64,000 nucleotides of DNA, taken from contig JAOMDP010000002.1 in assembly GCA_028345515.1 (NCBI GenBank), positions 65,180 to 129,179 on the forward strand, given 5' to 3'. Position numbers and translations under genes: made by a program. Position 1 is the first letter of the stretch; every line of letters starts with the position of its first letter. The notes beneath the pieces were generated by a model. That model made no database searches and was not told the origin of the DNA. It was given only the letters and a program-made list of their open reading frames with translations. The DNA is from Nitrospinota bacterium. GTDB lineage: Bacteria > Nitrospinota > Nitrospinia > Nitrospinales > VA-1. This document shows positions 38,568 through 49,076 of this stretch, one piece after another.

Positions 38568-38934
38568 AATGCAACTATTTAGCAGGTTCAATTGCCTAAA
38601 TCAACTGCCTCTAATAACTGCCAATAAATCAATTAACCAAATAGGGATGTTAAATACTTAAGTGAGATAGATGAACGGGAAACTATACCTGAGTAGGGAT
38701 AGTTGATTATCGTTTACCAACAACGACAACTCAGATACCCAACAAAAAAATTAAATAAAATACTTTAATGTAAAGTTTTACTTCCCCAAAAAAAAATTTC
38801 TATTAAATTATTTTAAACTGGTCAAAAATATGATAAAAGACGATGCAAAAGTGGAGTCATTAATAAAAGTAATTAGTTTGCTAATAATTTTCTAACTGGT
38901 TTAGTAATATAAACTTAAATTAGGAGCCAACCCC

Positions 38935-39273
38935 ATGACTGATTGCACAACGCATCCAAACCATGACCATACTCACGGTGAAAACTGTGGTCATACAAAA
39001 ATTAAGCACGAAGATCATTACGATTTTCTCCACGATGGACACTTGCATCATCCCCATGAAGACCATATTGACGAGCATGTGTTAGAAGTAAATGATGATC
39101 AACCCAACGAATGTAATAAAAAACATCTTCACGATCATACTCATGGCCCTGACTGCGAACATGAGGCTGTAACTCACGGGGATCATATAGACTATATAGT
39201 TGATGGACGCCTTCATCAACAACATGGCGATCACTGTGACGACCATGGAGCGGTAGAGGTTCTAACAAATTAG
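38935..39273 (+). CDS. Histidine-rich, internally duplicated putative metal-binding protein
   Basis: 112 aa with AGGAG RBS. Two about 42-aa repeats share the pattern HDHTHGxxCxH...DHxD(F/Y)...DGxLHxxHxDHxD(E/D)H. Confidence 0.7.
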   Translation: MTDCTTHPNHDHTHGENCGHTKIKHEDHYDFLHDGHLHHPHEDHIDEHVLEVNDDQPNECNKKHLHDHTHGPDCEHEAVTHGDHIDYIVDGRLHQQHGDHCDDHGAVEVLTN

Positions 39274-39409: not shown

Positions 39410-40315
39410 TTATATCTTTTCTTTCAATCGCCTCTTTTCCAAATCATCTAAGAAAGAAACATGTGTTTCTAACAAGGCCATATCTTTTTTTATTCTATTG
39501 AGCAATATTTTCATATTGGCTTCGGTTGTATCTATTTTTTCAAGTTTGGGGGCTAATTTGTATTTCTCTTCTTCTTTTAGGTCTTCCATATTATTGATAA
39601 TCACACCAATAATGAGATTAAGAAACACAAAAGTGGCCAGCAAAACAAAGCTGACAAAATACAACCAACCCAAAAAAGGAAATGCCTCTGAATTTTTACA
39701 CAATTCTTCCATCCCCGAATAACCATACTGTTGGCAACCATATATCGCTGTATACATGATGTCTGTCCAATCTTCCAATGTTGCCACACGGAATAGGCTT
39801 AGTAGGGTTAAGTGAAGACTTTCAAAGTGAATAGGATCGTTTGCACGAAATAAAAATGTTCCAAGGCATGCATATATATAAAACAAGATGGACAAGAGGG
39901 CTGCAATATAACCCATTGAGGGAATACTTTTTAAAAGTGTATTTACAATTAGTTTTAGTTCTGGGACCGTGCCCACTAAACGAACAACCCTCAATACTCT
40001 TAATAACCTTAAAACAATTATAGATTGCCCATCAAATGGAAGAAAACACGCACTGACAATGATAAAGTCAAAGGTATTCCACCCGTCCTTGAAAAACTCG
40101 GAAAATCTGCCACCTAAAGCGACCATTTTGAGTAAAATTTCAAAGACAAACAGCCATAATATAATGCTGTCCATAACATTTAAAATTCTTCCATATTGAG
40201 CAGAAATCGATGGATACGAATCTAGCCCCACTACTAATCCTGATAAAAGAATTATTGCTATAAAAAATATTTGAAATTGTTTTGATTCAGTAAGAGCTTT
40301 TAGTTTCTGTTGCAT
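39410..40315 (-). CDS. Voltage-gated cation channel, BacNaV (NaChBac) family
   Basis: Six TM segments. S4 is RLLRVLRVVR, pore is FRVATLEDWTDIMY, S6 is WLYFVSFVLLATFVFLNLIIGVIINN, with a C-terminal coiled coil. ATG at 40315 has an AAGGAAA RBS (the track's TTG is at 40330). Confidence 0.9.
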   Translation of the reverse strand: MQQKLKALTESKQFQIFFIAIILLSGLVVGLDSYPSISAQYGRILNVMDSIILWLFVFEILLKMVALGGRFSEFFKDGWNTFDFIIVSACFLPFDGQSIIVLRLLRVLRVVRLVGTVPELKLIVNTLLKSIPSMGYIAALLSILFYIYACLGTFLFRANDPIHFESLHLTLLSLFRVATLEDWTDIMYTAIYGCQQYGYSGMEELCKNSEAFPFLGWLYFVSFVLLATFVFLNLIIGVIINNMEDLKEEEKYKLAPKLEKIDTTEANMKILLNRIKKDMALLETHVSFLDDLEKRRLKEKI

Positions 40316-40586
40316 AACTTTCCTTAACAAGTATTAATTAGATTTAAAATTCTATTTTTATTTAATAATTTATTACTGCAATACTCCTACCCCAAAGGGT
40401 TATAAAGCGGGGCGATACGTTCAATTTTAGGGTAGTGCAATTCGAGTGTGACTTGATCTCTACCTAAAGGCCGGGAGTTCAATGGGGATGCCCAACAAGT
40501 TCTCCGGAAAGTATAAATATTGATTGGCTTTTTGGAGAATTGAATTACCTATAATAGCTTTTTTAGGTTCTAAATAAAGATCACAT

Positions 40587-41881: not shown

Positions 41882-42685
41882 ATGGAAGAAGTAAGTTTTG
41901 AGCAAATAATAACGGCAAATCTAGTCGATAACGGTAAACTTTTAGATCTAGAAGACAAAAATATCGGTATTGAAGAATTACGTCTTTTAGCAGCAAGCAA
42001 AGAATTGACCGGGGTGAAACAACTTTATCTTAGCCAAAATCAGTTGTGTGGGGAAGCCATCGAAGTTCTTTGTCAGGTAAAGTGTTTACCTGAGCTTACC
42101 TCTCTTTACCTCAATCACAATATCATTGGCGACGAAGAAGCAAAGTCTCTTGCCCAGGCTGATCTTTTAAAAAGTTTAAAATGTATCATGCTGGAAGCCA
42201 ACAATATCGGCCCAAAAGGTGCAGCCGCCCTGGCCGAATCTCCAAACCTAAAAAATATGGAAATCATTTTTCTGGATTCAAATCCTATTGGAGCCGAAGG
42301 CGCAAGGGCGATTGCCACATCAGAACATTGGCCCAGTTTGAAAGCACTACACCTTGATAGCACCGGAATCGGTGATGCGGGGACCGAGGCACTTGCTCAA
42401 AGTAAGTATTTAACGGATCTGGAAAAACTATATTTATGCTCCAATAAAATGGGTAATGCTGGGGCTATAGCTATTGCAAACTCGCCCTACTTGAAGAACC
42501 TGACTGCTTTAAGTATCTGGAGGAACGAAATAAGAGATGAAGGGGGACAAGCTATCGCAGAATCAGAAACTTTTTCGAACCTGGACCGCCTTTATATGAG
42601 TCTAAACTATATAGAACGCCCCATTCGAAAAGTGATTCGAAGCTCTGGGCTTGCACAACGTTTAACCACTCTGGTAATGGACTGA
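41882..42685 (+). CDS. Ribonuclease-inhibitor-type leucine-rich repeat protein
   Basis: At least six consecutive 28-residue repeats of the form LxxLxLxxNxIGxxGaxaLAxSxxLxx, for example LKALHLDSTGIGDAGTEALAQSKYLTD. No signal peptide. Confidence 0.8.
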   Translation: MEEVSFEQIITANLVDNGKLLDLEDKNIGIEELRLLAASKELTGVKQLYLSQNQLCGEAIEVLCQVKCLPELTSLYLNHNIIGDEEAKSLAQADLLKSLKCIMLEANNIGPKGAAALAESPNLKNMEIIFLDSNPIGAEGARAIATSEHWPSLKALHLDSTGIGDAGTEALAQSKYLTDLEKLYLCSNKMGNAGAIAIANSPYLKNLTALSIWRNEIRDEGGQAIAESETFSNLDRLYMSLNYIERPIRKVIRSSGLAQRLTTLVMD

Positions 42686-43773: not shown

Positions 43774-44451
43774 TTGAAAACTTCTATCATCATTCCCACC
43801 TTAAATGAAGCGCGGTATTTGAGTGAAACTTTGGCACAAATACAACAGCTATCGCCTCACGAAATTATTATTAGCGATGGGGGCAGCAATGATAACACCC
43901 TCAAAATCGCCTCTAAATTTACTCAAAATCTAATAAAAGGACCTGCTGGGCGTGCACTGCAAATGAACGCGGGAGCTCAGGTCGCCACAGGTGACCTTCT
44001 ACTTTTTCTCCATGCTGATAGCTGTATTGAACGCGCCAGTTATCAGAAAATGTTGGCCGCAATGAAAAAACCAGAAGTACTTGGAGGGGCCTTCTCGCTT
44101 CTAATTGATTCAGACAGATGGGCTTTACAAATAATCAACCAGTTTGCAAATCTGCGTTCAAGATACCTTGGAAGAGCATATGGGGATCAGGCTTTTTTTG
44201 TAAAAAAACATGTCTTTCAGGAAATGAGAGGGTTTACGGATTTTCCTATATGTGAAGACTTAGATTTCTATAAACGACTAAAAATTTTAGGTCCGGTAGT
44301 CCTCCTCAAAGAAGAAGTTCTCACTTCTCCTCGCAGGTGGATAAATGAAGGTATCTGGTTTACCACAATCAGAAATATTCTCATTGCGACTTTATTCGAA
44401 TTAGGTTTTCCGCCTCGCATTCTTACGAAATGGTACCAAATCATCCGCTAA
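43774..44451 (+). CDS. Family 2 glycosyltransferase
   Basis: SIIIPTLNEA, ISDGGSNDNT, LFLHADS (DxD-like region). TTG start. Confidence 0.85.
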   Translation: MKTSIIIPTLNEARYLSETLAQIQQLSPHEIIISDGGSNDNTLKIASKFTQNLIKGPAGRALQMNAGAQVATGDLLLFLHADSCIERASYQKMLAAMKKPEVLGGAFSLLIDSDRWALQIINQFANLRSRYLGRAYGDQAFFVKKHVFQEMRGFTDFPICEDLDFYKRLKILGPVVLLKEEVLTSPRRWINEGIWFTTIRNILIATLFELGFPPRILTKWYQIIR

Positions 44452-44605
44452 ACACTCAAAATGATACCTATTGCATTTCCCGCAAACCCAAAATAGCTCA
44501 TCCAACTGCTTACTCAAGCTTTTCTTTATTATCCCGTCAAAAACTCCAACTGCAATTTTTTAATAAAAAGATATGATATGCCTGCTATACGGTGGGGATT
44601 GACTG

Positions 44606-44634
44606 TTGCATCGTAGCATTCCAGTCCATATAAT
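44606..44634 (+). promoter_or_regulatory. Sigma70-like promoter for the 44679-47162 operon
   Basis: TTGCAT (44606-44611), 17-nt spacer, TATAAT (44629-44634). About 45 nt upstream of the ATG at 44679. Confidence 0.5.
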
Positions 44635-44678
44635 TAGTATTAACCTATACACAATTAAAAAAAGGTTTATTTCAAAAA

Positions 44679-45140
44679 ATGGCTAATAAAAAGAAACCTG
44701 GGCCAAAACACTCTAAAATTAATAAAAAACGTACCTCTAAAATAGCTATGGTAGTTTTTGTCTGTATCGTAGTTGTAGGGGTTTATGTAGGTACAAAACC
44801 TTCAGTAAAAGTTCAGCCTGTAGCACCAGCGACAGGAACATTAATTGAAACACGTCCCATCTTAACCGATGCAATGTTTGTAGGAAGAGTAGCAAAGGCC
44901 TACCGAATTGCTGCAGAAATACCTAAGGTGTTGGACAGTTTATTTTGCTACTGTTATTGCAAAAAAAATCACAATCATAAAACTTTGTTGACTTGCTACA
45001 CAAATAAGCATGGCTCAAAATGCGATATTTGCTTAAACGAAGTTTTTTATGCTTATGAATTATATAATCAAGGTAAAACTCTAGACGAAATTGTTGTTGC
45101 GGTAGACAAAAAATTCTATCGCCCTTATCGCCGAGCTTAA
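44679..45140 (+). CDS. Membrane-anchored Cys-rich protein, PCYCGC-motif-like
   Basis: Basic N-terminus plus a TM helix. Extracytoplasmic domain has FCYCYCKKNHNHKTLLTCY...HGSKCDICLNE, resembling the PCYCGC-motif family as I recall it. Confidence 0.55.
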   Translation: MANKKKPGPKHSKINKKRTSKIAMVVFVCIVVVGVYVGTKPSVKVQPVAPATGTLIETRPILTDAMFVGRVAKAYRIAAEIPKVLDSLFCYCYCKKNHNHKTLLTCYTNKHGSKCDICLNEVFYAYELYNQGKTLDEIVVAVDKKFYRPYRRA

Positions 45141-45173
45141 ACCCTTATAAAATCATTTCAAACCCACTCTAAA

Positions 45174-45737
45174 ATGGAAAACGTTTCTCAAGATAAACCT
45201 ATTAGCATTTACATTCCTTATACGTTTCTGGTAGCAGCATTACTGTCCGTATTTGTTATATCGCTCAACAAGGTAGAGTTAAAACCCTTTGAGACCGAAT
45301 ATCCCGCGGAAGCTTTTATATCTCCAAACTTTGAACTACCAAGTTTGTTAGGCGGCAAAGTAAAACTTTCTGACTACCGAGGTAAAGTAGTGTTTATAAA
45401 TTTCTGGGCTACCTGGTGTGGTACCTGCGAAGTTGAAATGCCCTCAATGGAAAAATTGTATCGTAAATTCAAGGACCATGGATTCGAAATGCTCACTATA
45501 AGTGTTGACAAAGATCAGACGTTGATCGAACCATTTATGAAAAAATTCAATCTAACCTTCCCCGTATTGTTAGACCCAGAAAGCATGGTGGCCAAAAAAG
45601 TTTACAAAACTACCGGAGTTCCAGAAACATTTATCGTTGGTCGAGAAGGATTGATTCGGCACAAAGCTGTTGGCCCTAGAGACTGGGCCAACGATGAAAC
45701 GATAGAAGCTTTTACGCAATTGGTAATGGGATCATGA
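45174..45737 (+). CDS. TlpA/ResA-like thiol-disulfide oxidoreductase
   Basis: TM anchor. Thioredoxin fold with the WATWCGTC active site and the GVPETFIV cis-Pro region. Confidence 0.85.
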   Translation: MENVSQDKPISIYIPYTFLVAALLSVFVISLNKVELKPFETEYPAEAFISPNFELPSLLGGKVKLSDYRGKVVFINFWATWCGTCEVEMPSMEKLYRKFKDHGFEMLTISVDKDQTLIEPFMKKFNLTFPVLLDPESMVAKKVYKTTGVPETFIVGREGLIRHKAVGPRDWANDETIEAFTQLVMGS

Positions 45738-46144
45738 AACAACTTTTAATCATTATTACCTTATCTATCTTTGCTTTTATCACCCAAAATGTATTTGCGC
45801 ATGGTGGGGGTCATAAAAAGGAAACGGCTCCAATTCCAGCTACTGAAGAACCAGCTGATTCGATGTATGTAACGGGAGAAAAGGAGTCAGATCCATTTGA
45901 AAGCCCTGAATTGTTTTCTCCCGGCGACCTATTTATGCCAGGAGAAATTGAGCCCGAAAAAAGTGAATCAATGGATATGGAGGGCAGCCACAGTGAAAAT
46001 AATGAGCACAGTATGCCCAAAGTGGAATCGGCAAAACATAAAGCTATAGAAACATCAAGCAAAGGCTATGCTACGGCATTAGGTATTACTGTTTTCGCAG
46101 GTCTTATTTTTGCAGGGCTTACTTTCATAAGACCAGGAGAATAA
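45734..46144 (+). CDS. Signal-peptide plus C-terminal-anchor protein with acidic Met/His-rich linker
   Basis: Start overlaps the tlpA-like stop (ATGA). Signal peptide ends ...[12 protein letters not shown]. Low-complexity E/D/P/M/H region. C-terminal [20 protein letters not shown]. Confidence 0.6.
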
Positions 46145-46148
46145 CAGC

Positions 46149-47162
46149 ATGGCTAACGGACTTACAAAAATCTTGGAAGACCGATTAGGCCTGCACCTTC
46201 TCGAATACGATATCCCCGAACATTCAAACTCCATAAAATATTCCCTAGGAGGAATGACCCTTTCTTCCTTTGGGATTCTGGTAATCAGTGGCATCTTGCT
46301 ATCGCAATTTTTCATCCCCGATCCCGAGCGCGCCAATCGAAGCCTGCATTACCTAGTCGATCAAGTTTATCTGGGTTGGTATCTTCGCGGCATTCACTTT
46401 TGGGCGGGAGAAGTATTGACCGTAACCATGATACTCCATGCCATTCGTGTTTTCTTCACCGCTTCCTATAAAAACCCACGAGAAATCAACTGGCTCATTG
46501 GAATCGGAATCATGACTATGATGGGCACTCTACTATTCACCGGCACAGTTCTAAAGTGGGATCAAGAAGCTTATGAGGCGTTGGCGCATTTCCTTTGGGT
46601 TGCCGAGAAAATGGGGCCTTTTGGTCTACCTCTTACCGAAGCTTTTGCTCAGGGGGTTCCTTTACTAAATAGGATTTACATGGCACATATTTCCCTATTA
46701 CCCATCATCGTGATCCTGATGATTGGATTGCATTTATTCTATATTAAATACCATAAGCTATCGCAATTACCGGATGCTACAAAGCCCGCTAAAAATATTC
46801 CATTTACTCAGCATATGGCCTACTTGAGGAGAGCCGGCGCCGGGATCTTATTATTAATTTGTCTGCTTGCACTTACTATTGCACCGCCTTTAGGAGAGGA
46901 ACCGGTATTGGGCCTCGAAGTTACCAAGCCTCCCTGGCAATTTGTTTGGATCTATGCATTGGAAAATGTGTGGGTACCTTTTTTAATTGTAGCCCCGCCT
47001 ATAATTATAGGATTTTTGCTAGCTGTTCCCATAGTTGATCAAAACAAAGAGCGCTATTGGAAAAAGCGCCCCCTCGCAAGCGCTGTTCTGGCAGGTTTTA
47101 TATTAATTTTTGCAGCCTTAATTATTTGGGGTAGTGTGACCACAATGACTCACTCCATGTAA
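46149..47162 (+). CDS. Cytochrome b (fused b6 plus subunit-IV-like), b6-type heme spacing
   Basis: Helix B His pair is [15 protein letters not shown] (14 apart). Helix D pair is [16 protein letters not shown] (15 apart). [13 protein letters not shown] is present. PPWQF stands where PEWY normally sits. About 7 TM helices. Starts 4 nt after the upstream stop. Confidence 0.85.
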
Positions 47163-47253
47163 CTGAACCACAACTGTGGAAACGGGTCAGCACCTATAAC
47201 AAAAATTCCATAACCGAAAAAATTCAAATTACTCGTTTTACCATCGTGAATTC

Positions 47254-47499
47254 ATGCAAATACAAATCGAAATCCTGACCAAAAAAGATTGTGGCTTATG
47301 CGATGATGCTAAAGAAATTGTTGAGCGGGTTTTGCCTGACTTCCCAGCAACACTAAAAATGATTGATATCGAATCCAACTCCGATCTTTTTGAGAAATAT
47401 AAAGAAAAAATACCTGTAGTGCGCATCAATGGAAAAGAAAACTTCGTATATAAAGTGCACGAAATAACTTTAAGAAAAAAACTAGAAAAACTTATTTAA
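47254..47499 (+). CDS. Glutaredoxin-like protein (DUF836 type)
   Basis: 81 aa. LTKKDCGLCDDAK CxxC motif and IPVVRING. Confidence 0.75.
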   Translation: MQIQIEILTKKDCGLCDDAKEIVERVLPDFPATLKMIDIESNSDLFEKYKEKIPVVRINGKENFVYKVHEITLRKKLEKLI

Positions 47500-47529
47500 T
47501 AATTTGCTTTGTAGGAATGGAGAATAGCA

Positions 47530-47835
47530 ATGGTAGAAAAAACTGCATTGACTGAACAGGAATTGGAAGAGAAGCTAAAAGATATGGCACCAGAATGGAA
47601 AACAGGCAAAAACGAAAAAGGGGTATCTTTTATTCAGCGGGTACACCATGCTTCAAAGTTTATGCAAGGAATTGATTTTGTCGGTAAAGTTGCGGAGGCT
47701 GCAGAAGAAAACAATCATCATCCCGATATCATCATAAACTACAAACGAATTTCCATCCGTTATTGGACGCATACAGCGAGTGGGGTTACCCTGGCAGATA
47801 TTCAAATGGCACAAAAAATCGATCCGTTATTTTAA
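47530..47835 (+). CDS. Pterin-4-alpha-carbinolamine dehydratase
   Basis: HHPDIIINYKRISIRYWTH signature. 101 aa. Confidence 0.9.
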   Translation: MVEKTALTEQELEEKLKDMAPEWKTGKNEKGVSFIQRVHHASKFMQGIDFVGKVAEAAEENNHHPDIIINYKRISIRYWTHTASGVTLADIQMAQKIDPLF

Positions 47836-49076
47836 CCGCCCTGAATCTCAGCCTGCATGATGTCATCCAGGGTTTGACGTTTTCGGGTCAGCGTGCAAAT
47901 ATCACCATCGATAATTACTTCGGGAATTAAAGGCTGGGAATTATAGTTCGAAGACATGACATGACCATAGGCCCCTGCCCCTCCAATTACGATGCAGTCA
48001 CCTGACTTAGGCATAGGTAATTTTCTTGGAACCGGTTCTTCATCCTTCTGGGTTAATACATCTCCAGATTCACAGACGGGACCAGCGATAATCAAATTTT
48101 GTTCGGGACCCAACTCTTCTCCATCAAACCAGATGGGATGAAAAGAACCATATGCCATTGGCCGGATTAAATGGCAAAAACCAACATTTGTTAAAACATA
48201 ATCGATTCGTTTTCCCTCTTCGTCAAAAGTGTGATTAAGAGATCGCACTTCGCCGATCAAATATCCACATCCTGCTACAAAGCGTCTTCCCGGCTCTATC
48301 TCACAAACCACTTCCCTGCCGAAATGTTCTCTAAGAACTTTCGCTCTCTCATCGATAATTGCTTTATAGCCCGTAATATCTTCCTGCGGTTGATCAGGAT
48401 CATACTGGTAAGGTAAACCACCTCCAAAATTAATGGTTTCTACATCTGGAAATTCTTTAGCAAATTCTACCAATTTTCCTGTAATACGCTTAAGGTGTTC
48501 CATATCTCCACCAGAACCAATATGCATATGCACACCAGATAGAGTCAGATTATATTTATTCAGTAATTGCTTGACCTCATCCAGGTTTTGGTACCAGATG
48601 CCATGTTTACTATAGGGTCCACCGGTATTGGTTTTTTTGGAGTGCCCTGCTCCCTCTCCCGGATTAATACGAATAGATATTTTGGGTGAACCAGTGGTCT
48701 GTTTTTTTAAAGCCTGACCATACTCTTCGACCATTCCTAATGTGCCGCAGTTACAATAAATATTATTTTCCAAACAATAGTTCACATCATTGGAATTAAA
48801 AAAAACATCGCTGGTGAAGCAAATATCTTCGGCCTTATAACCGGCTCTAAGAGCACGCTGTACTTCATATACACTAACCGCATCTATTTTTACTCCATTG
48901 GCCAACATCTCTTGCAAAATTCTCACATTGGAGGAAGCTTTCATTGCGTAACGCGTGACAGGAGATAGTTTTTTTATTTCCTGGATGGCCCTACGCAAAA
49001 TTTCCAAACTATATACATAAACAGGAGTACCAAACCTACTGGCGATCTCCCGAACTTCGACTTTTTCAATTTTCAT
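47832..49076 (-). CDS. lysA: Diaminopimelate decarboxylase family PLP enzyme
   Basis: FGTPVYVYS, YAMKASSN (PLP Lys), HMHIGSG, EPGRRFV, GPVCESGD. Divergent from speA, so an ornithine/lysine-type substrate cannot be excluded. Confidence 0.8.
   Translation of the reverse strand: MKIEKVEVREIASRFGTPVYVYSLEILRRAIQEIKKLSPVTRYAMKASSNVRILQEMLANGVKIDAVSVYEVQRALRAGYKAEDICFTSDVFFNSNDVNYCLENNIYCNCGTLGMVEEYGQALKKQTTGSPKISIRINPGEGAGHSKKTNTGGPYSKHGIWYQNLDEVKQLLNKYNLTLSGVHMHIGSGGDMEHLKRITGKLVEFAKEFPDVETINFGGGLPYQYDPDQPQEDITGYKAIIDERAKVLREHFGREVVCEIEPGRRFVAGCGYLIGEVRSLNHTFDEEGKRIDYVLTNVGFCHLIRPMAYGSFHPIWFDGEELGPEQNLIIAGPVCESGDVLTQKDEEPVPRKLPMPKSGDCIVIGGAGAYGHVMSSNYNSQPLIPEVIIDGDICTLTRKRQTLDDIMQAEIQGG

What the first reader, a model, noticed from the sequence alone, without database searches (positions are those of the whole stretch)
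44606..47162. Orphan b6-type cytochrome b in an operon with thiol-redox and Cys-motif proteins, with no Rieske or c-type partner
Four genes follow a TTGCAT-N17-TATAAT promoter. Two junctions are tightly coupled: 45734 overlaps the preceding stop as ATGA, and 46149 starts 4 nt after a stop. The genes are a membrane-anchored FCYCYC...CDIC protein (PCYCGC-like), a TlpA-like thioredoxin (WCGTC), a Met/His/acidic anchored protein, and a 337-aa fused cytochrome b. The cytochrome keeps both bis-His heme pairs with b6-type spacing (14 apart in helix B, 15 apart in helix D). It has PPWQF where the Qo-site PEWY motif sits, and [11 protein letters not shown] where the conserved GYxLPWGQ motif sits. No Rieske (CxH...CxxH) or CxxCH cytochrome ORF is present in the flanking genes I read. 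A cytochrome b detached from bc/b6f partners and wired to extracytoplasmic thiol-redox proteins suggests a non-canonical quinol-linked module. One possibility is that it transfers electrons to periplasmic thiol or metal centres.
Basis: partly seen in the sequence, partly recalled or inferred. Interest (0 to 1): 0.6.

Follow-up and report, generated by a model that had tools for sequence, protein, structure and literature searches.

The report
Rieske-less cytochrome b in copper-linked operon
A marine nitrite-oxidiser carries a second cytochrome b that has no iron-sulfur partner and belongs to a widespread, undescribed subfamily found beside copper-handling genes, so it probably passes electrons from membrane quinones to copper outside the cell membrane.

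Summary
No Rieske or CxxCH ORF occurs anywhere in the 64 kb window.

The window comes from a marine Nitrospinota. The order CYCXC, TlpA-like, Met/His protein, cytochrome b and a fifth gene (cytoplasmic glutaredoxin-like) is conserved in about 80 Nitrospinota species genomes.

The cytochrome b belongs to a broad, uncurated subfamily found in Chloroflexota, Actinomycetota, Bacillota, Armatimonadota and Nitrospinota. Its outer face is remodelled and invariant (TGTxLKWDQExxEALxH; TKPPW). None of 171 loci has a Rieske gene next door.

The recurrent partner is a secreted protein anchored by its C-terminus, usually with His as its first mature residue. The Met/His protein here has that build. Outside Nitrospinota the neighbours are copper genes: Cu-ATPases, cupredoxins, CsoR, DUF2933, YHS and HMA. 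They are never thiol-redox genes. PCYCGC relatives sit in Burkholderia copper islands.

The best reading, by inference only, is a quinol-linked electron conduit to periplasmic copper with a thiol-based Cu(I) handling branch. The extra unsplit cytochrome b was noted in the N. gracilis genome paper (2013), without further analysis there.

The parts
44606..44634 (+). Putative promoter: TTGCAT (-35, 3 of 6 to consensus), 17-nt spacer, TATAAT (-10)
   Evidence: Sequence read. Not called by the consensus scan. GTTG(C/A)A(T/A)C and CAGTCCATATAATTAG are conserved in 10 relatives whose surrounding intergenic DNA cannot be aligned.
44679..45140 (+). CYCXC/PCYCGC-family protein, 153 aa: basic N-terminal tail, one TM helix, periplasmic Cys-rich domain (C90 C92 C94 H100 C106 C115 C118)
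   Evidence: NF041379 118.8 bits (cutoff 90) and PF13798 34.3 bits. All six Cys and His100 are invariant, including in Burkholderia homologs. The structure model is poor (pLDDT 57).
45174..45737 (+). TlpA/ResA-like membrane-anchored thioredoxin-fold protein, 187 aa, WCGTC active site
   Evidence: AhpC-TSA 101 bits and Redoxin 90 bits. ResA, TlpA and StoA equivalog models all score below their cutoffs. N-terminal hydrophobic segment and Cys82/Cys85.
45734..46144 (+). Met/His/acidic protein, 136 aa: signal peptide ending VFA|HGGGH, acidic linker, [16 protein letters not shown] patch, a His about 10 residues before the KGYA motif that opens the C-terminal TM anchor
   Evidence: No Pfam or NCBIfam family. 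The architecture is conserved in 75 distinct Nitrospinota orthologs. The same build sits next to distant subfamily members. The start overlaps the TlpA-like stop as ATGA.
46149..47162 (+). Fused, Rieske-less, b6-type cytochrome b, 337 aa, 7 TM helices, two bis-His haems, remodelled outer (P-side) face
   Evidence: PF00033 91 bits and PF13631 85 bits. His83/97/180/195. AF2 model pLDDT 92.3. Foldseek TM-score 0.84-0.86 to full-length cytochrome b. Profile E 4e-57 to cytochrome b6. PPWQ aligns to PEWY. Subfamily invariants listed.
47254..47499 (+). Cytoplasmic glutaredoxin-like protein (DUF836), 81 aa, CGLC motif; probable fifth gene of the operon
   Evidence: PF05768 60.8 bits. It directly follows the cytochrome b in nearly all Nitrospinota loci. 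No terminator-like site or stable hairpin lies in the 91-nt gap. No equivalent is found outside Nitrospinota.

Best explanation
The locus is a five-gene operon made of two modules.

Module 1 is the Met/His protein plus the cytochrome b. Together they form a membrane electron conduit between the quinone pool and a periplasmic copper site. The cytochrome keeps the two-haem, b6-like core and the b6-like cytoplasmic-side residues. Its Rieske-docking face is replaced by an invariant acidic/His patch. The anchored partner offers an N-terminal His, a Met/His patch and a His close to the membrane. The most likely reaction is quinol-driven reduction of Cu(II) to Cu(I), or redox poising of a copper-bound partner.

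Module 2 is the CYCXC protein plus the TlpA-like reductase. It is a periplasmic thiol-based Cu(I) handling branch. The six-Cys/one-His CYCXC domain takes or buffers Cu(I), and the TlpA-like protein keeps its cysteines reduced, as TlpA does for ScoI.

The role of the cytoplasmic Glrx-like protein is unresolved.

Shown: gene content, conservation, haem ligands, fold, absence of a Rieske gene nearby, and the copper-gene neighbourhoods of both families.

Inferred: copper binding, the direction of electron flow, which quinone site is used, and hand-over between the two modules.
For: Gene order is conserved in about 80 Nitrospinota species genomes, with tight junctions and a conserved promoter.

The cytochrome b subfamily has invariant G132 T133 K136 D138 Q139 E140 E143 A144 H147 P261 E272. 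The cytoplasmic-side motifs stay b6-like.

Among 86 non-Nitrospinota loci of the subfamily:
- 34 have a downstream secreted protein whose signal peptide ends A|H(E/G), with a C-terminal anchor.
- 13 have an upstream protein of the same build.
- 9 have a SHOCT-cupredoxin directly upstream.
- 16 have a Cu P-type ATPase within two genes.
- 5 have a CsoR-type repressor.
- DUF2933, YHS and HMA domains also occur.

The Amycolatopsis and Chloroflexota loci are clear copper islands. Copper-type motifs occur in 31 of 88 of these loci.

PCYCGC homologs on Burkholderia plasmids sit between DsbD/DUF2933 and a multicopper oxidase, with TlpA, DsbA and CopD nearby. DUF2933, cupredoxin and CopA clusters are documented in copper-resistance islands (PMC8478169).

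Sec forms of the CYCXC family (UxxC) point to redox or metal chemistry (PMC13188914). A haem-b membrane protein has recently been proposed as a periplasmic copper reductase (CrpH, PMC13038864).

From established knowledge: menaquinol to Cu(II) is thermodynamically downhill, and TlpA reduces the copper chaperone ScoI.
Against: No copper binding or reductase activity has been measured for any of these proteins.

The Nitrospinota loci themselves lie among housekeeping genes, not next to Cu-ATPase, CsoR or cupredoxin genes. The copper link there rests on family-level association and on sequence motifs.

The N-terminal His of the partner is frequent but not invariant; some orthologs have Asp, Gln or Arg.

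Some subfamily members sit beside multihaem cytochromes c (L004, L085) or beside an Rrf2 regulator gene, a hybrid-cluster-protein (prismane) gene and a two-component system (L174), so the subfamily may serve more than one acceptor.

CYCXC could not be modelled.

The gene calls in the high-GC metagenome contigs come from my own heuristic.
Confidence: 0.45

Rival explanations
1. Quinone-linked thiol-redox relay. The cytochrome b acts as electron sink or source for the TlpA-like/CYCXC pair. It would replace either DsbB/VKOR (oxidising) or CcdA/DsbD (reducing), with the cytoplasmic Glrx-like protein feeding electrons on the cytoplasmic side.
For: Three CxxC proteins share the operon with the cytochrome: two periplasmic and one cytoplasmic. 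This arrangement holds across the phylum. In L087 a CcdA gene and a thioredoxin gene lie near a subfamily member, although on the opposite strand and beyond a large gene.
Against: In 88 loci outside Nitrospinota the same cytochrome subfamily never has CYCXC or Glrx-like genes adjacent. The only TlpA-model hit is the L087 thioredoxin, which is not adjacent to the cytochrome b. The cytochrome has a single Cys, not among the invariant columns, so electrons would have to pass between thiols and haems, which has no precedent. Menaquinol is too weak a reductant for TlpA-type disulfides without an energy input (own knowledge). The conserved partner is the Met/His protein, not a thioredoxin.
Confidence: 0.2
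2. A general quinol:periplasmic-carrier oxidoreductase. The subfamily is a respiratory module that hands electrons to, or takes them from, whichever periplasmic carrier is encoded nearby: cupredoxin, multihaem cytochrome c, or the His-first anchored protein. In Nitrospinota it would serve energy metabolism, for example electron flow between copper carriers of the nitrite oxidation system and the quinone pool. The CYCXC/TlpA pair would act as assembly factors.
For: Cupredoxin is fused to a membrane anchor directly upstream in 9 loci. Multihaem c genes are adjacent in L004 and L085. The nearest curated family is ExtP of a Geobacter electron-transfer operon, though the score is below its cutoff. 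Rieske-less cytochrome b homologs do work in respiration, for example SoxC (own knowledge; weak NCBIfam hit). Nitrospina has cupredoxins in its NXR cluster (PMC3578206).
Against: The dominant neighbours are homeostasis genes (Cu-ATPase, CsoR, DUF2933, YHS, HMA), not respiratory enzymes. The Met/His protein is largely low-complexity sequence and does not look like a folded redox carrier.
Confidence: 0.2
3. A spare cytochrome b for the canonical complex. The protein pairs with the Rieske protein encoded elsewhere as an alternative isoform of complex III, and the neighbouring genes are only syntenic passengers.
For: Organisms with several cytochrome b copies are known (PMC4122944). All four haem ligands and the full fold are intact. 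Source annotations call it a bc-complex subunit.
Against: The cd and ef surfaces where the Rieske head docks are replaced by a different invariant signature, and PEWY has lost its acidic residue. None of 171 loci has a Rieske gene adjacent. The cytochrome b start is 4 nt from the stop of the Met/His gene, and that partner type recurs across phyla.
Confidence: 0.07

Closest known systems
Cytochrome b6 plus subunit IV of b6f / Bacillus-type bc complexes
   Same: Two bis-His haems with b6 spacing (14 and 15). Seven helices. Cytoplasmic-side motifs such as TGxxKxPRExxW and the C-terminal GIS of b6. The C-terminal domain aligns best to subunit IV.
   Different: It is fused into one chain. There is no Cys35 for haem ci. 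PEWY is PPWQ. GYxLPWDQ is GTVLKWDQE followed by EALxH. No Rieske or c-type partner is nearby.
The second, unsplit b/b6-type cytochrome b noted in Nitrospina gracilis (Lucker et al. 2013, PMC3578206)
   Same: Very probably the ortholog. The phylum-wide family is 65-97% identical to the window protein and is a single-copy syntenic locus.
   Different: In the passages I read, the paper only records its existence. They give no operon context, partners, subfamily or function.
SoxC of the Sulfolobus SoxABCD quinol oxidase, ExtP and other Rieske-less cytochrome b homologs
   Same: They are cytochrome b homologs that work without a Rieske protein. SoxC and SoxN carry PPWF at the Qo motif (PMC4122944). 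ExtP is the best-scoring curated model.
   Different: Scores are far below the cutoffs: ExtP 148 against 290, SoxC 55 against 740. Their partners are oxidase subunits or cytochromes c, not a His-first anchored protein or copper genes.
Haem-b transmembrane metalloreductases (PepSY_TM FoxB/CrpH; eukaryotic Dcytb, STEAP, Fre1)
   Same: The proposed mechanism is the same: two stacked b haems carry electrons across the membrane to reduce a metal outside. CrpH is proposed to be a periplasmic copper reductase (PMC13038864).
   Different: The fold and family are unrelated. Here the scaffold is a bc-type cytochrome b with quinone-site remnants. The electron donor would be quinol rather than a cytoplasmic reductant.
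TlpA-ScoI/PCuAC copper-chaperone maturation pathway and PCYCGC lipoproteins of Burkholderia copper islands
   Same: A periplasmic TlpA-type reductase sits beside a Cys-based candidate copper protein. PCYCGC homologs lie among DsbD, TlpA, multicopper oxidase and CopD genes.
   Different: No Sco or PCuAC domain is present. The function of CYCXC/PCYCGC has never been tested. Linkage to a cytochrome b is seen only in Nitrospinota.

Membership tests
Cytochrome b/b6 superfamily (PF00033, PF13631) | Pfam score above the gathering cutoff | tested here: met
   PF00033 91.4 bits (cutoff 27.2); PF13631 84.6 bits (cutoff 27).
Cytochrome b/b6 superfamily (PF00033, PF13631) | Four axial His ligands on helices B and D | tested here: met
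   His83, 97, 180 and 195 are invariant in the 26-sequence alignment.
Cytochrome b/b6 superfamily (PF00033, PF13631) | Cytochrome b fold | tested here: met
   AF2 pLDDT 92.3. Foldseek TM-score 0.84-0.86 to solved cytochromes b.
Rieske/cytochrome b complex (bc1, b6f, bcc) | Rieske iron-sulfur subunit encoded with, or associated with, the cytochrome b | tested here: not met
   No Rieske box in the 64 kb window, in 83 Nitrospinota loci or in 88 other loci. Physical association was not testable.
Rieske/cytochrome b complex (bc1, b6f, bcc) | Qo motif with an acidic residue (PEWY/PDWY) or a known compensating pattern | tested here: not met
   PPWQ aligns to PEWY. The second position is Pro in most subfamily members shown, and the fourth position varies.
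Rieske/cytochrome b complex (bc1, b6f, bcc) | c-type cytochrome or equivalent acceptor in the operon | tested here: not met
   No CxxCH ORF in the window. Only 2 of 88 distant loci have a multihaem c next door.
b6f-type cytochrome b6 | Cys35 (CxGG) for covalent haem ci | tested here: not met
   Ser32 aligns to Cys35. The only Cys is C238.
ExtP (NF040969) | Score at or above the curated cutoff | tested here: not met
   148.2 bits against a cutoff of 290. Distant subfamily members score 160-171.
CYCXC family (seleno)protein (NF041379) / PCYCGC (PF13798) | Score at or above the curated cutoff | tested here: met
   118.8 bits (cutoff 90) and 34.3 bits (cutoff 25).
CYCXC family (seleno)protein (NF041379) / PCYCGC (PF13798) | CxCxC plus a downstream Cys and CxxC | tested here: met
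   C90 C92 C94 C106 C115 C118 and H100 are invariant, including in Burkholderia homologs. Here the Cys form is present, not Sec.
TlpA / ResA / DsbE equivalogs | Score at or above the equivalog cutoff | tested here: not met
   ResA 121.7 against 170; TlpA 77.1 against 230; DsbE 53 against 123. It belongs only to the broader AhpC-TSA/Redoxin thioredoxin-fold group, with a WCxxC site.
DsbB/VKOR or CcdA/DsbD membrane thiol relays (function considered for the cytochrome b) | Conserved Cys pairs in or near the membrane domain | tested here: not met
   One Cys (C238), and no Cys among the invariant columns.
Histidine-brace-type copper proteins (CopC, YcnI, PmoB-like) for the Met/His protein | His as the first residue after signal-peptide cleavage | tested here: inconclusive
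   A|H follows the signal peptide in at least 80% of Nitrospinota orthologs and in most of the 47 partner proteins from other lineages, but Asp, Gln and Arg occur. The cleavage site is inferred from sequence only.
Histidine-brace-type copper proteins (CopC, YcnI, PmoB-like) for the Met/His protein | Copper binding and a brace geometry | not testable with these tools
   No family match. Testing needs metal analysis or a structure.
Glutaredoxin-like DUF836 (PF05768) | Pfam score above cutoff and a CxxC motif | tested here: met
   60.8 bits (cutoff 26); CGLC at residues 13-16.

The most novel reading that the evidence does not exclude
A widespread class of cytochrome b-copper complexes exists in Chloroflexota, Actinomycetota, Bacillota, Armatimonadota and Nitrospinota. 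In these complexes a copper centre takes the place of the Rieske cluster at the outer face of a bc-type cytochrome b. The copper is held by a His-first anchored protein or a tethered cupredoxin, together with the invariant KWDQE..EAL.H / TKPPW patch. The result would be a quinol:copper oxidoreductase used for copper reduction or detoxification that does not depend on oxygen.
Probability: 0.25. Interest if true: 0.85.

Novelty: new variant of a known kind. Interest (0 to 1): 0.62.

Why it matters
Cytochrome b is among the most studied membrane proteins, and it is normally treated as inseparable from the Rieske protein. A large, conserved, Rieske-less branch with its own invariant outer face and its own partner would add a new way of connecting the quinone pool to the periplasm.

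If the acceptor is copper, it would supply a missing enzyme of bacterial copper biology. That enzyme is a periplasmic cupric reductase, or a Cu(I)/Cu(II) redox poise, that needs no oxygen. This is relevant to Nitrospinota in oxygen-minimum zones, which depend on cuproproteins. It is also relevant to copper-resistance islands in soil Actinomycetota and Chloroflexota.

It would also give a first functional context to three families that have none. These are CYCXC/PCYCGC (also a selenoprotein family), the His-first anchored proteins, and this cytochrome b subfamily.

Tried and rejected
1. The sigma-70 and terminator scan of 44300-47900 found no promoter and only two terminator-like sites, both inside genes. 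I replaced it with phylogenetic footprinting.

2. The structure of CYCXC reached only pLDDT 57. I therefore ran no fold search on it.

3. phmmer of the C-terminal domain alone against the PDB found nothing relevant. A profile of 17 C-terminal domains was needed.

4. Both the genome-contig scan and the first protein search returned only Nitrospinota. I reached distant members through the representative search and through a metagenome scan seeded with a non-Nitrospinota sequence.

5. The CYCXC protein search listed only Nitrospinota in its top 120. tblastn against plasmids then gave the Burkholderia homologs.

6. I considered CYCXC as an Fe-S replacement for Rieske and rejected it. CYCXC has no twin-arginine signal for exporting a folded cluster protein (sequence), and it is absent beside the subfamily outside Nitrospinota.

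7. I considered a role in cytochrome c maturation and rejected it. No CxxCH substrate or Ccs/Ccm genes lie in the operon. Ccm genes occur near only one distant locus, L093.

8. Literature searches for 'orphan cytochrome b' with 'Rieske', and for 'cupric reductase' with 'cytochrome b', 'periplasm' and 'quinol', returned no description of this subfamily.
Full report
**1. The observation**

- 44679-45140, 153 aa
- 45174-45737, 187 aa
- 45734-46144, 136 aa
- 46149-47162, 337 aa

The third ORF starts inside the stop of the second (TCATGA). The fourth starts 4 nt after the third.

TTGCAT-N17-TATAAT lies at 44606-44634. The consensus scan did not report it because the -35 matches only 3 of 6 positions. 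However, aligning the upstream regions of ten relatives shows GTTG(C/A)A(T/A)C and CAGTCCATATAATTAG as the only conserved islands in DNA that otherwise cannot be aligned. That is better evidence for a promoter than a consensus match.

Family searches gave the following:
- Protein 1 is a CYCXC-family (seleno)protein. It scores 118.8 bits against NF041379 (cutoff 90) and 34 bits against PF13798 PCYCGC.
- Protein 2 is an AhpC-TSA/Redoxin thioredoxin-fold protein with WCGTC. It scores below the ResA, TlpA and DsbE equivalog cutoffs.
- Protein 3 matches no family.
- Protein 4 matches PF00033 and PF13631.

In the cytochrome, His83/His97 are 14 apart and His180/His195 are 15 apart, which is the b6 pattern. 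Against solved structures the best match is cytochrome b6 (E 2e-28; 4e-57 with a family profile). In that alignment [11 protein letters not shown] lies on GYSLPWDQIGY, and Ser32 lies on Cys35, the residue that attaches haem ci. A profile of the C-terminal domains aligns TKPPWxF to LPEWYF of subunit IV.

The AlphaFold model is confident (pLDDT 92.3) and superposes on full-length cytochromes b with TM-scores of 0.84-0.86.

A six-frame scan of all 64 kb found no CxxCH ORF and no genuine Rieske box.

**2. Source organism and conservation**

The closest homologs are named Nitrospinae, Nitrospinaceae, Nitrospinales or Nitromaritima. The best genome match, at 96%, is a Nitrospinales MAG from Station ALOHA.

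I compared 80 species-level Nitrospinota genomes whose cytochrome b is 65-96% identical. The order CYCXC, TlpA-like, Met/His protein, cytochrome b is kept wherever the contig allows. A fifth gene, a cytoplasmic glutaredoxin-like DUF836 protein with a CGLC motif, follows directly in nearly all of them, often within a few to about 40 nt. In the window it lies at 47254-47499, after a 91-nt gap with no terminator-like site and no stable hairpin.

The upstream glycosyltransferase flips strand between genomes, so it is not part of the unit.

No Rieske box occurs in 1.2 Mb of flanks from 83 Nitrospinota loci, and the genes are co-conserved.

[quoted passage not shown] So the orphan itself is not new. 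In the passages I read, that paper gives it no operon context.

**3. The cytochrome b belongs to a wider, distinct subfamily**

An exhaustive search of 50%-identity representatives found relatives at 37-51% identity. Aligned, they share an invariant outer-face signature that is absent from b6 and bc1: G132 T133 K136 (W137) D138 Q139 E140 E143 A144 H147, summarised as TGTxLKWDQExxEALxH. They also share GxExTKPPW and E272. The cytoplasmic-side motifs remain b6-like.

The pattern KWDQE[GA]xEA found 457 relatives among the GTDB species genomes. Named members come from Chloroflexota, Actinomycetota (Amycolatopsis, Microbacteriaceae), Bacillota (Vulcanibacillus, Calderihabitans) and Armatimonadota.

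No curated model covers the subfamily. ExtP, b6, SoxC and QcrB all score below their cutoffs.

**4. What sits next to the subfamily**

I examined 88 loci from outside Nitrospinota. None has a Rieske box, and only two have a multihaem cytochrome c.

Clustering the neighbouring genes of 86 of these loci gave two recurrent families with no Pfam or NCBIfam match:
- A 170-185 aa protein downstream, in 34 loci.
- A 150-200 aa protein directly upstream, in 13 loci.

Both have a signal peptide that ends A|H(G/E/K), so His would be the first mature residue. Both also have a C-terminal transmembrane anchor. The window's Met/His protein has this same build: VFA|HGGGH, an acidic linker, the patch [16 protein letters not shown], a His just outside the membrane, and a KGYAxAxGIT anchor. 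This build is conserved in 75 distinct Nitrospinota orthologs. An HMM built from the Nitrospinota proteins detects the upstream protein of L093.

The other recurrent neighbours are copper genes:
- A Cu P-type ATPase with HMA or YHS domains within two genes, in 16 loci.
- A SHOCT-cupredoxin directly upstream, in 9 loci.
- A further Cupredoxin_1 protein family, in 3 loci.
- A CsoR-type repressor, in 5 loci.
- DUF2933.
- Two-component systems.

The Amycolatopsis locus carries cupredoxin-ATPase, SHOCT, ICMT/PEMT, CsoR and DUF305 genes. The Chloroflexota locus carries an HMA-ATPase, two HMA proteins and a YHS protein. The set DUF2933, cupredoxin, CopA and ICMT is a documented copper-island module (PMC8478169).

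A typical genome has only a few such genes among thousands. Nineteen per cent of loci with a Cu-ATPase within two genes is therefore far above chance. That estimate is my own and was not formally tested.

**5. The thiol branch**

CYCXC has a basic cytoplasmic tail, one helix and a periplasmic domain. In that domain C90, C92, C94, H100, C106, C115 and C118 are invariant, including in 23-27% identical PCYCGC lipoproteins on Burkholderia plasmids. Those plasmid genes lie between an RND pump with a CusF-like protein, DsbD and DUF2933 on one side, and a multicopper oxidase, HiPIP, DsbA, two TlpA-family genes and CopD on the other.

The family has Sec-containing members with a UxxC motif (PMC13188914).

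Outside Nitrospinota, HMMs for CYCXC, TlpA-like and Glrx-like find nothing beside the cytochrome subfamily, apart from one non-adjacent thioredoxin in L087. So the operon is a lineage-specific joining of two modules. The cytochrome b is not generically 'wired' to thiol proteins.

**6. Mechanism**

Shown:
- A two-haem, b6-type, seven-helix cytochrome b with an intact fold.
- A remodelled and invariant surface where the Rieske head normally docks.
- A conserved anchored partner translationally coupled to the cytochrome.
- Copper-gene neighbourhoods for both the cytochrome subfamily and the PCYCGC family.

Inferred:
- The cytochrome and the Met/His protein form an electron conduit from the quinone pool to a periplasmic copper site. 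The most likely reaction is reduction of Cu(II) to Cu(I), which is downhill from menaquinol.
- CYCXC handles the resulting Cu(I), and the TlpA-like protein keeps it reduced, as TlpA does for ScoI (established knowledge).
- The quinone site in use, the direction of flow and the role of the Glrx-like protein remain open.

I put this explanation at 0.45.

Rivals:
- A quinone-linked thiol relay (0.2). The absence of thiol genes elsewhere and the lack of conserved Cys weaken it.
- A general quinol:periplasmic-carrier respiratory module (0.2). The cupredoxin and multihaem c neighbours support it, and the dominance of homeostasis genes weakens it.
- A spare subunit for the canonical Rieske complex (0.07). 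The remodelled docking face argues against it.

**7. Comparison and novelty**

The protein is a member of the cytochrome b/b6 superfamily. It fails the defining features of Rieske/cytochrome b complexes that could be tested: an adjacent Rieske gene, an acidic Qo motif, a c-type partner and haem ci.

Functionally its closest analogues fall into two groups. The first is Rieske-less homologs such as SoxC, which shares PPWF (PMC4122944). The second is unrelated haem-b transmembrane metalloreductases, including CrpH, which was proposed in 2026 as a periplasmic copper reductase (PMC13038864).

My literature searches found no description of the subfamily, its partner or its copper association. These searches cover open-access papers only.

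I rate it a new variant of a known kind, with interest 0.62. All functional statements are computational inference.

Noticed in passing
window 43774-44451 (+): A glycosyltransferase matches TIGR04283 ('arsenosugar biosynthesis glycosyltransferase') at 238 bits against a cutoff of 182. It is a conserved neighbour of the operon in Nitrospinota but lies on either strand, so it is not co-transcribed.
   Followed up: partly
window 47530-47835 (+): A pterin-4a-carbinolamine dehydratase gene follows the Glrx-like gene within about 10-60 nt in most Nitrospinota loci. It may be a sixth co-transcribed gene. No link to the operon's function is apparent.
   Followed up: partly
window 44599-44640: The conserved block CAGTCCATATAATTAG extends beyond the -10 hexamer on both sides in ten relatives. 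This could be a regulator site overlapping the promoter. A better -35-like TTGACT at 44599-44604 is 24 nt from the -10 and is not conserved.
   Followed up: partly
window 38908-39270 (+): A His/Asp-rich ORF (…CEHEAVTHGDHIDYIVDGRLHQQHGDHCDDH…) has no Pfam match. It might be a metal-binding protein or might not be a gene.
   Followed up: no
window 39410-40330 (-) and 41882-42685 (+): A voltage-gated-type Ion_trans channel and a leucine-rich-repeat protein lie in a bacterial genome. The LRR gene is syntenic in other Nitrospinota (270-aa gene without Pfam in L001/L002).
   Followed up: no
L001 6844-8214; L002 6746-8245: Some Nitrospinota carry an extra 456-499 aa gene with no Pfam match between the glycosyltransferase and the CYCXC gene. 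A second contig of the same assembly (L003/L040) lacks it.
   Followed up: no
L085 8001-9806; L174 7001-8779; P0127, P0391: A Bacillota-type branch of the subfamily has a C-terminal extension of 250-300 residues built of repeated helical units (…AAxKAxELDEILDAINxKIAAKD…). It sits next to an OmpR-type two-component system.
   Followed up: no
L175 1-10738 (Amycolatopsis sp.); L176 (Chloroflexota): An ICMT/PEMT-family methyltransferase recurs beside the cytochrome b in copper islands. This matches the unexplained ICMT gene of the DUF2933-cupredoxin-CopA clusters in Alteromonas (PMC8478169).
   Followed up: no
L004 3-1163: The closest non-Nitrospinota relative (51% identity) is preceded by a c-type cytochrome with at least 16 haems and by a small His-first anchored protein. 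This shows the subfamily can also pair with multihaem cytochromes.
   Followed up: partly
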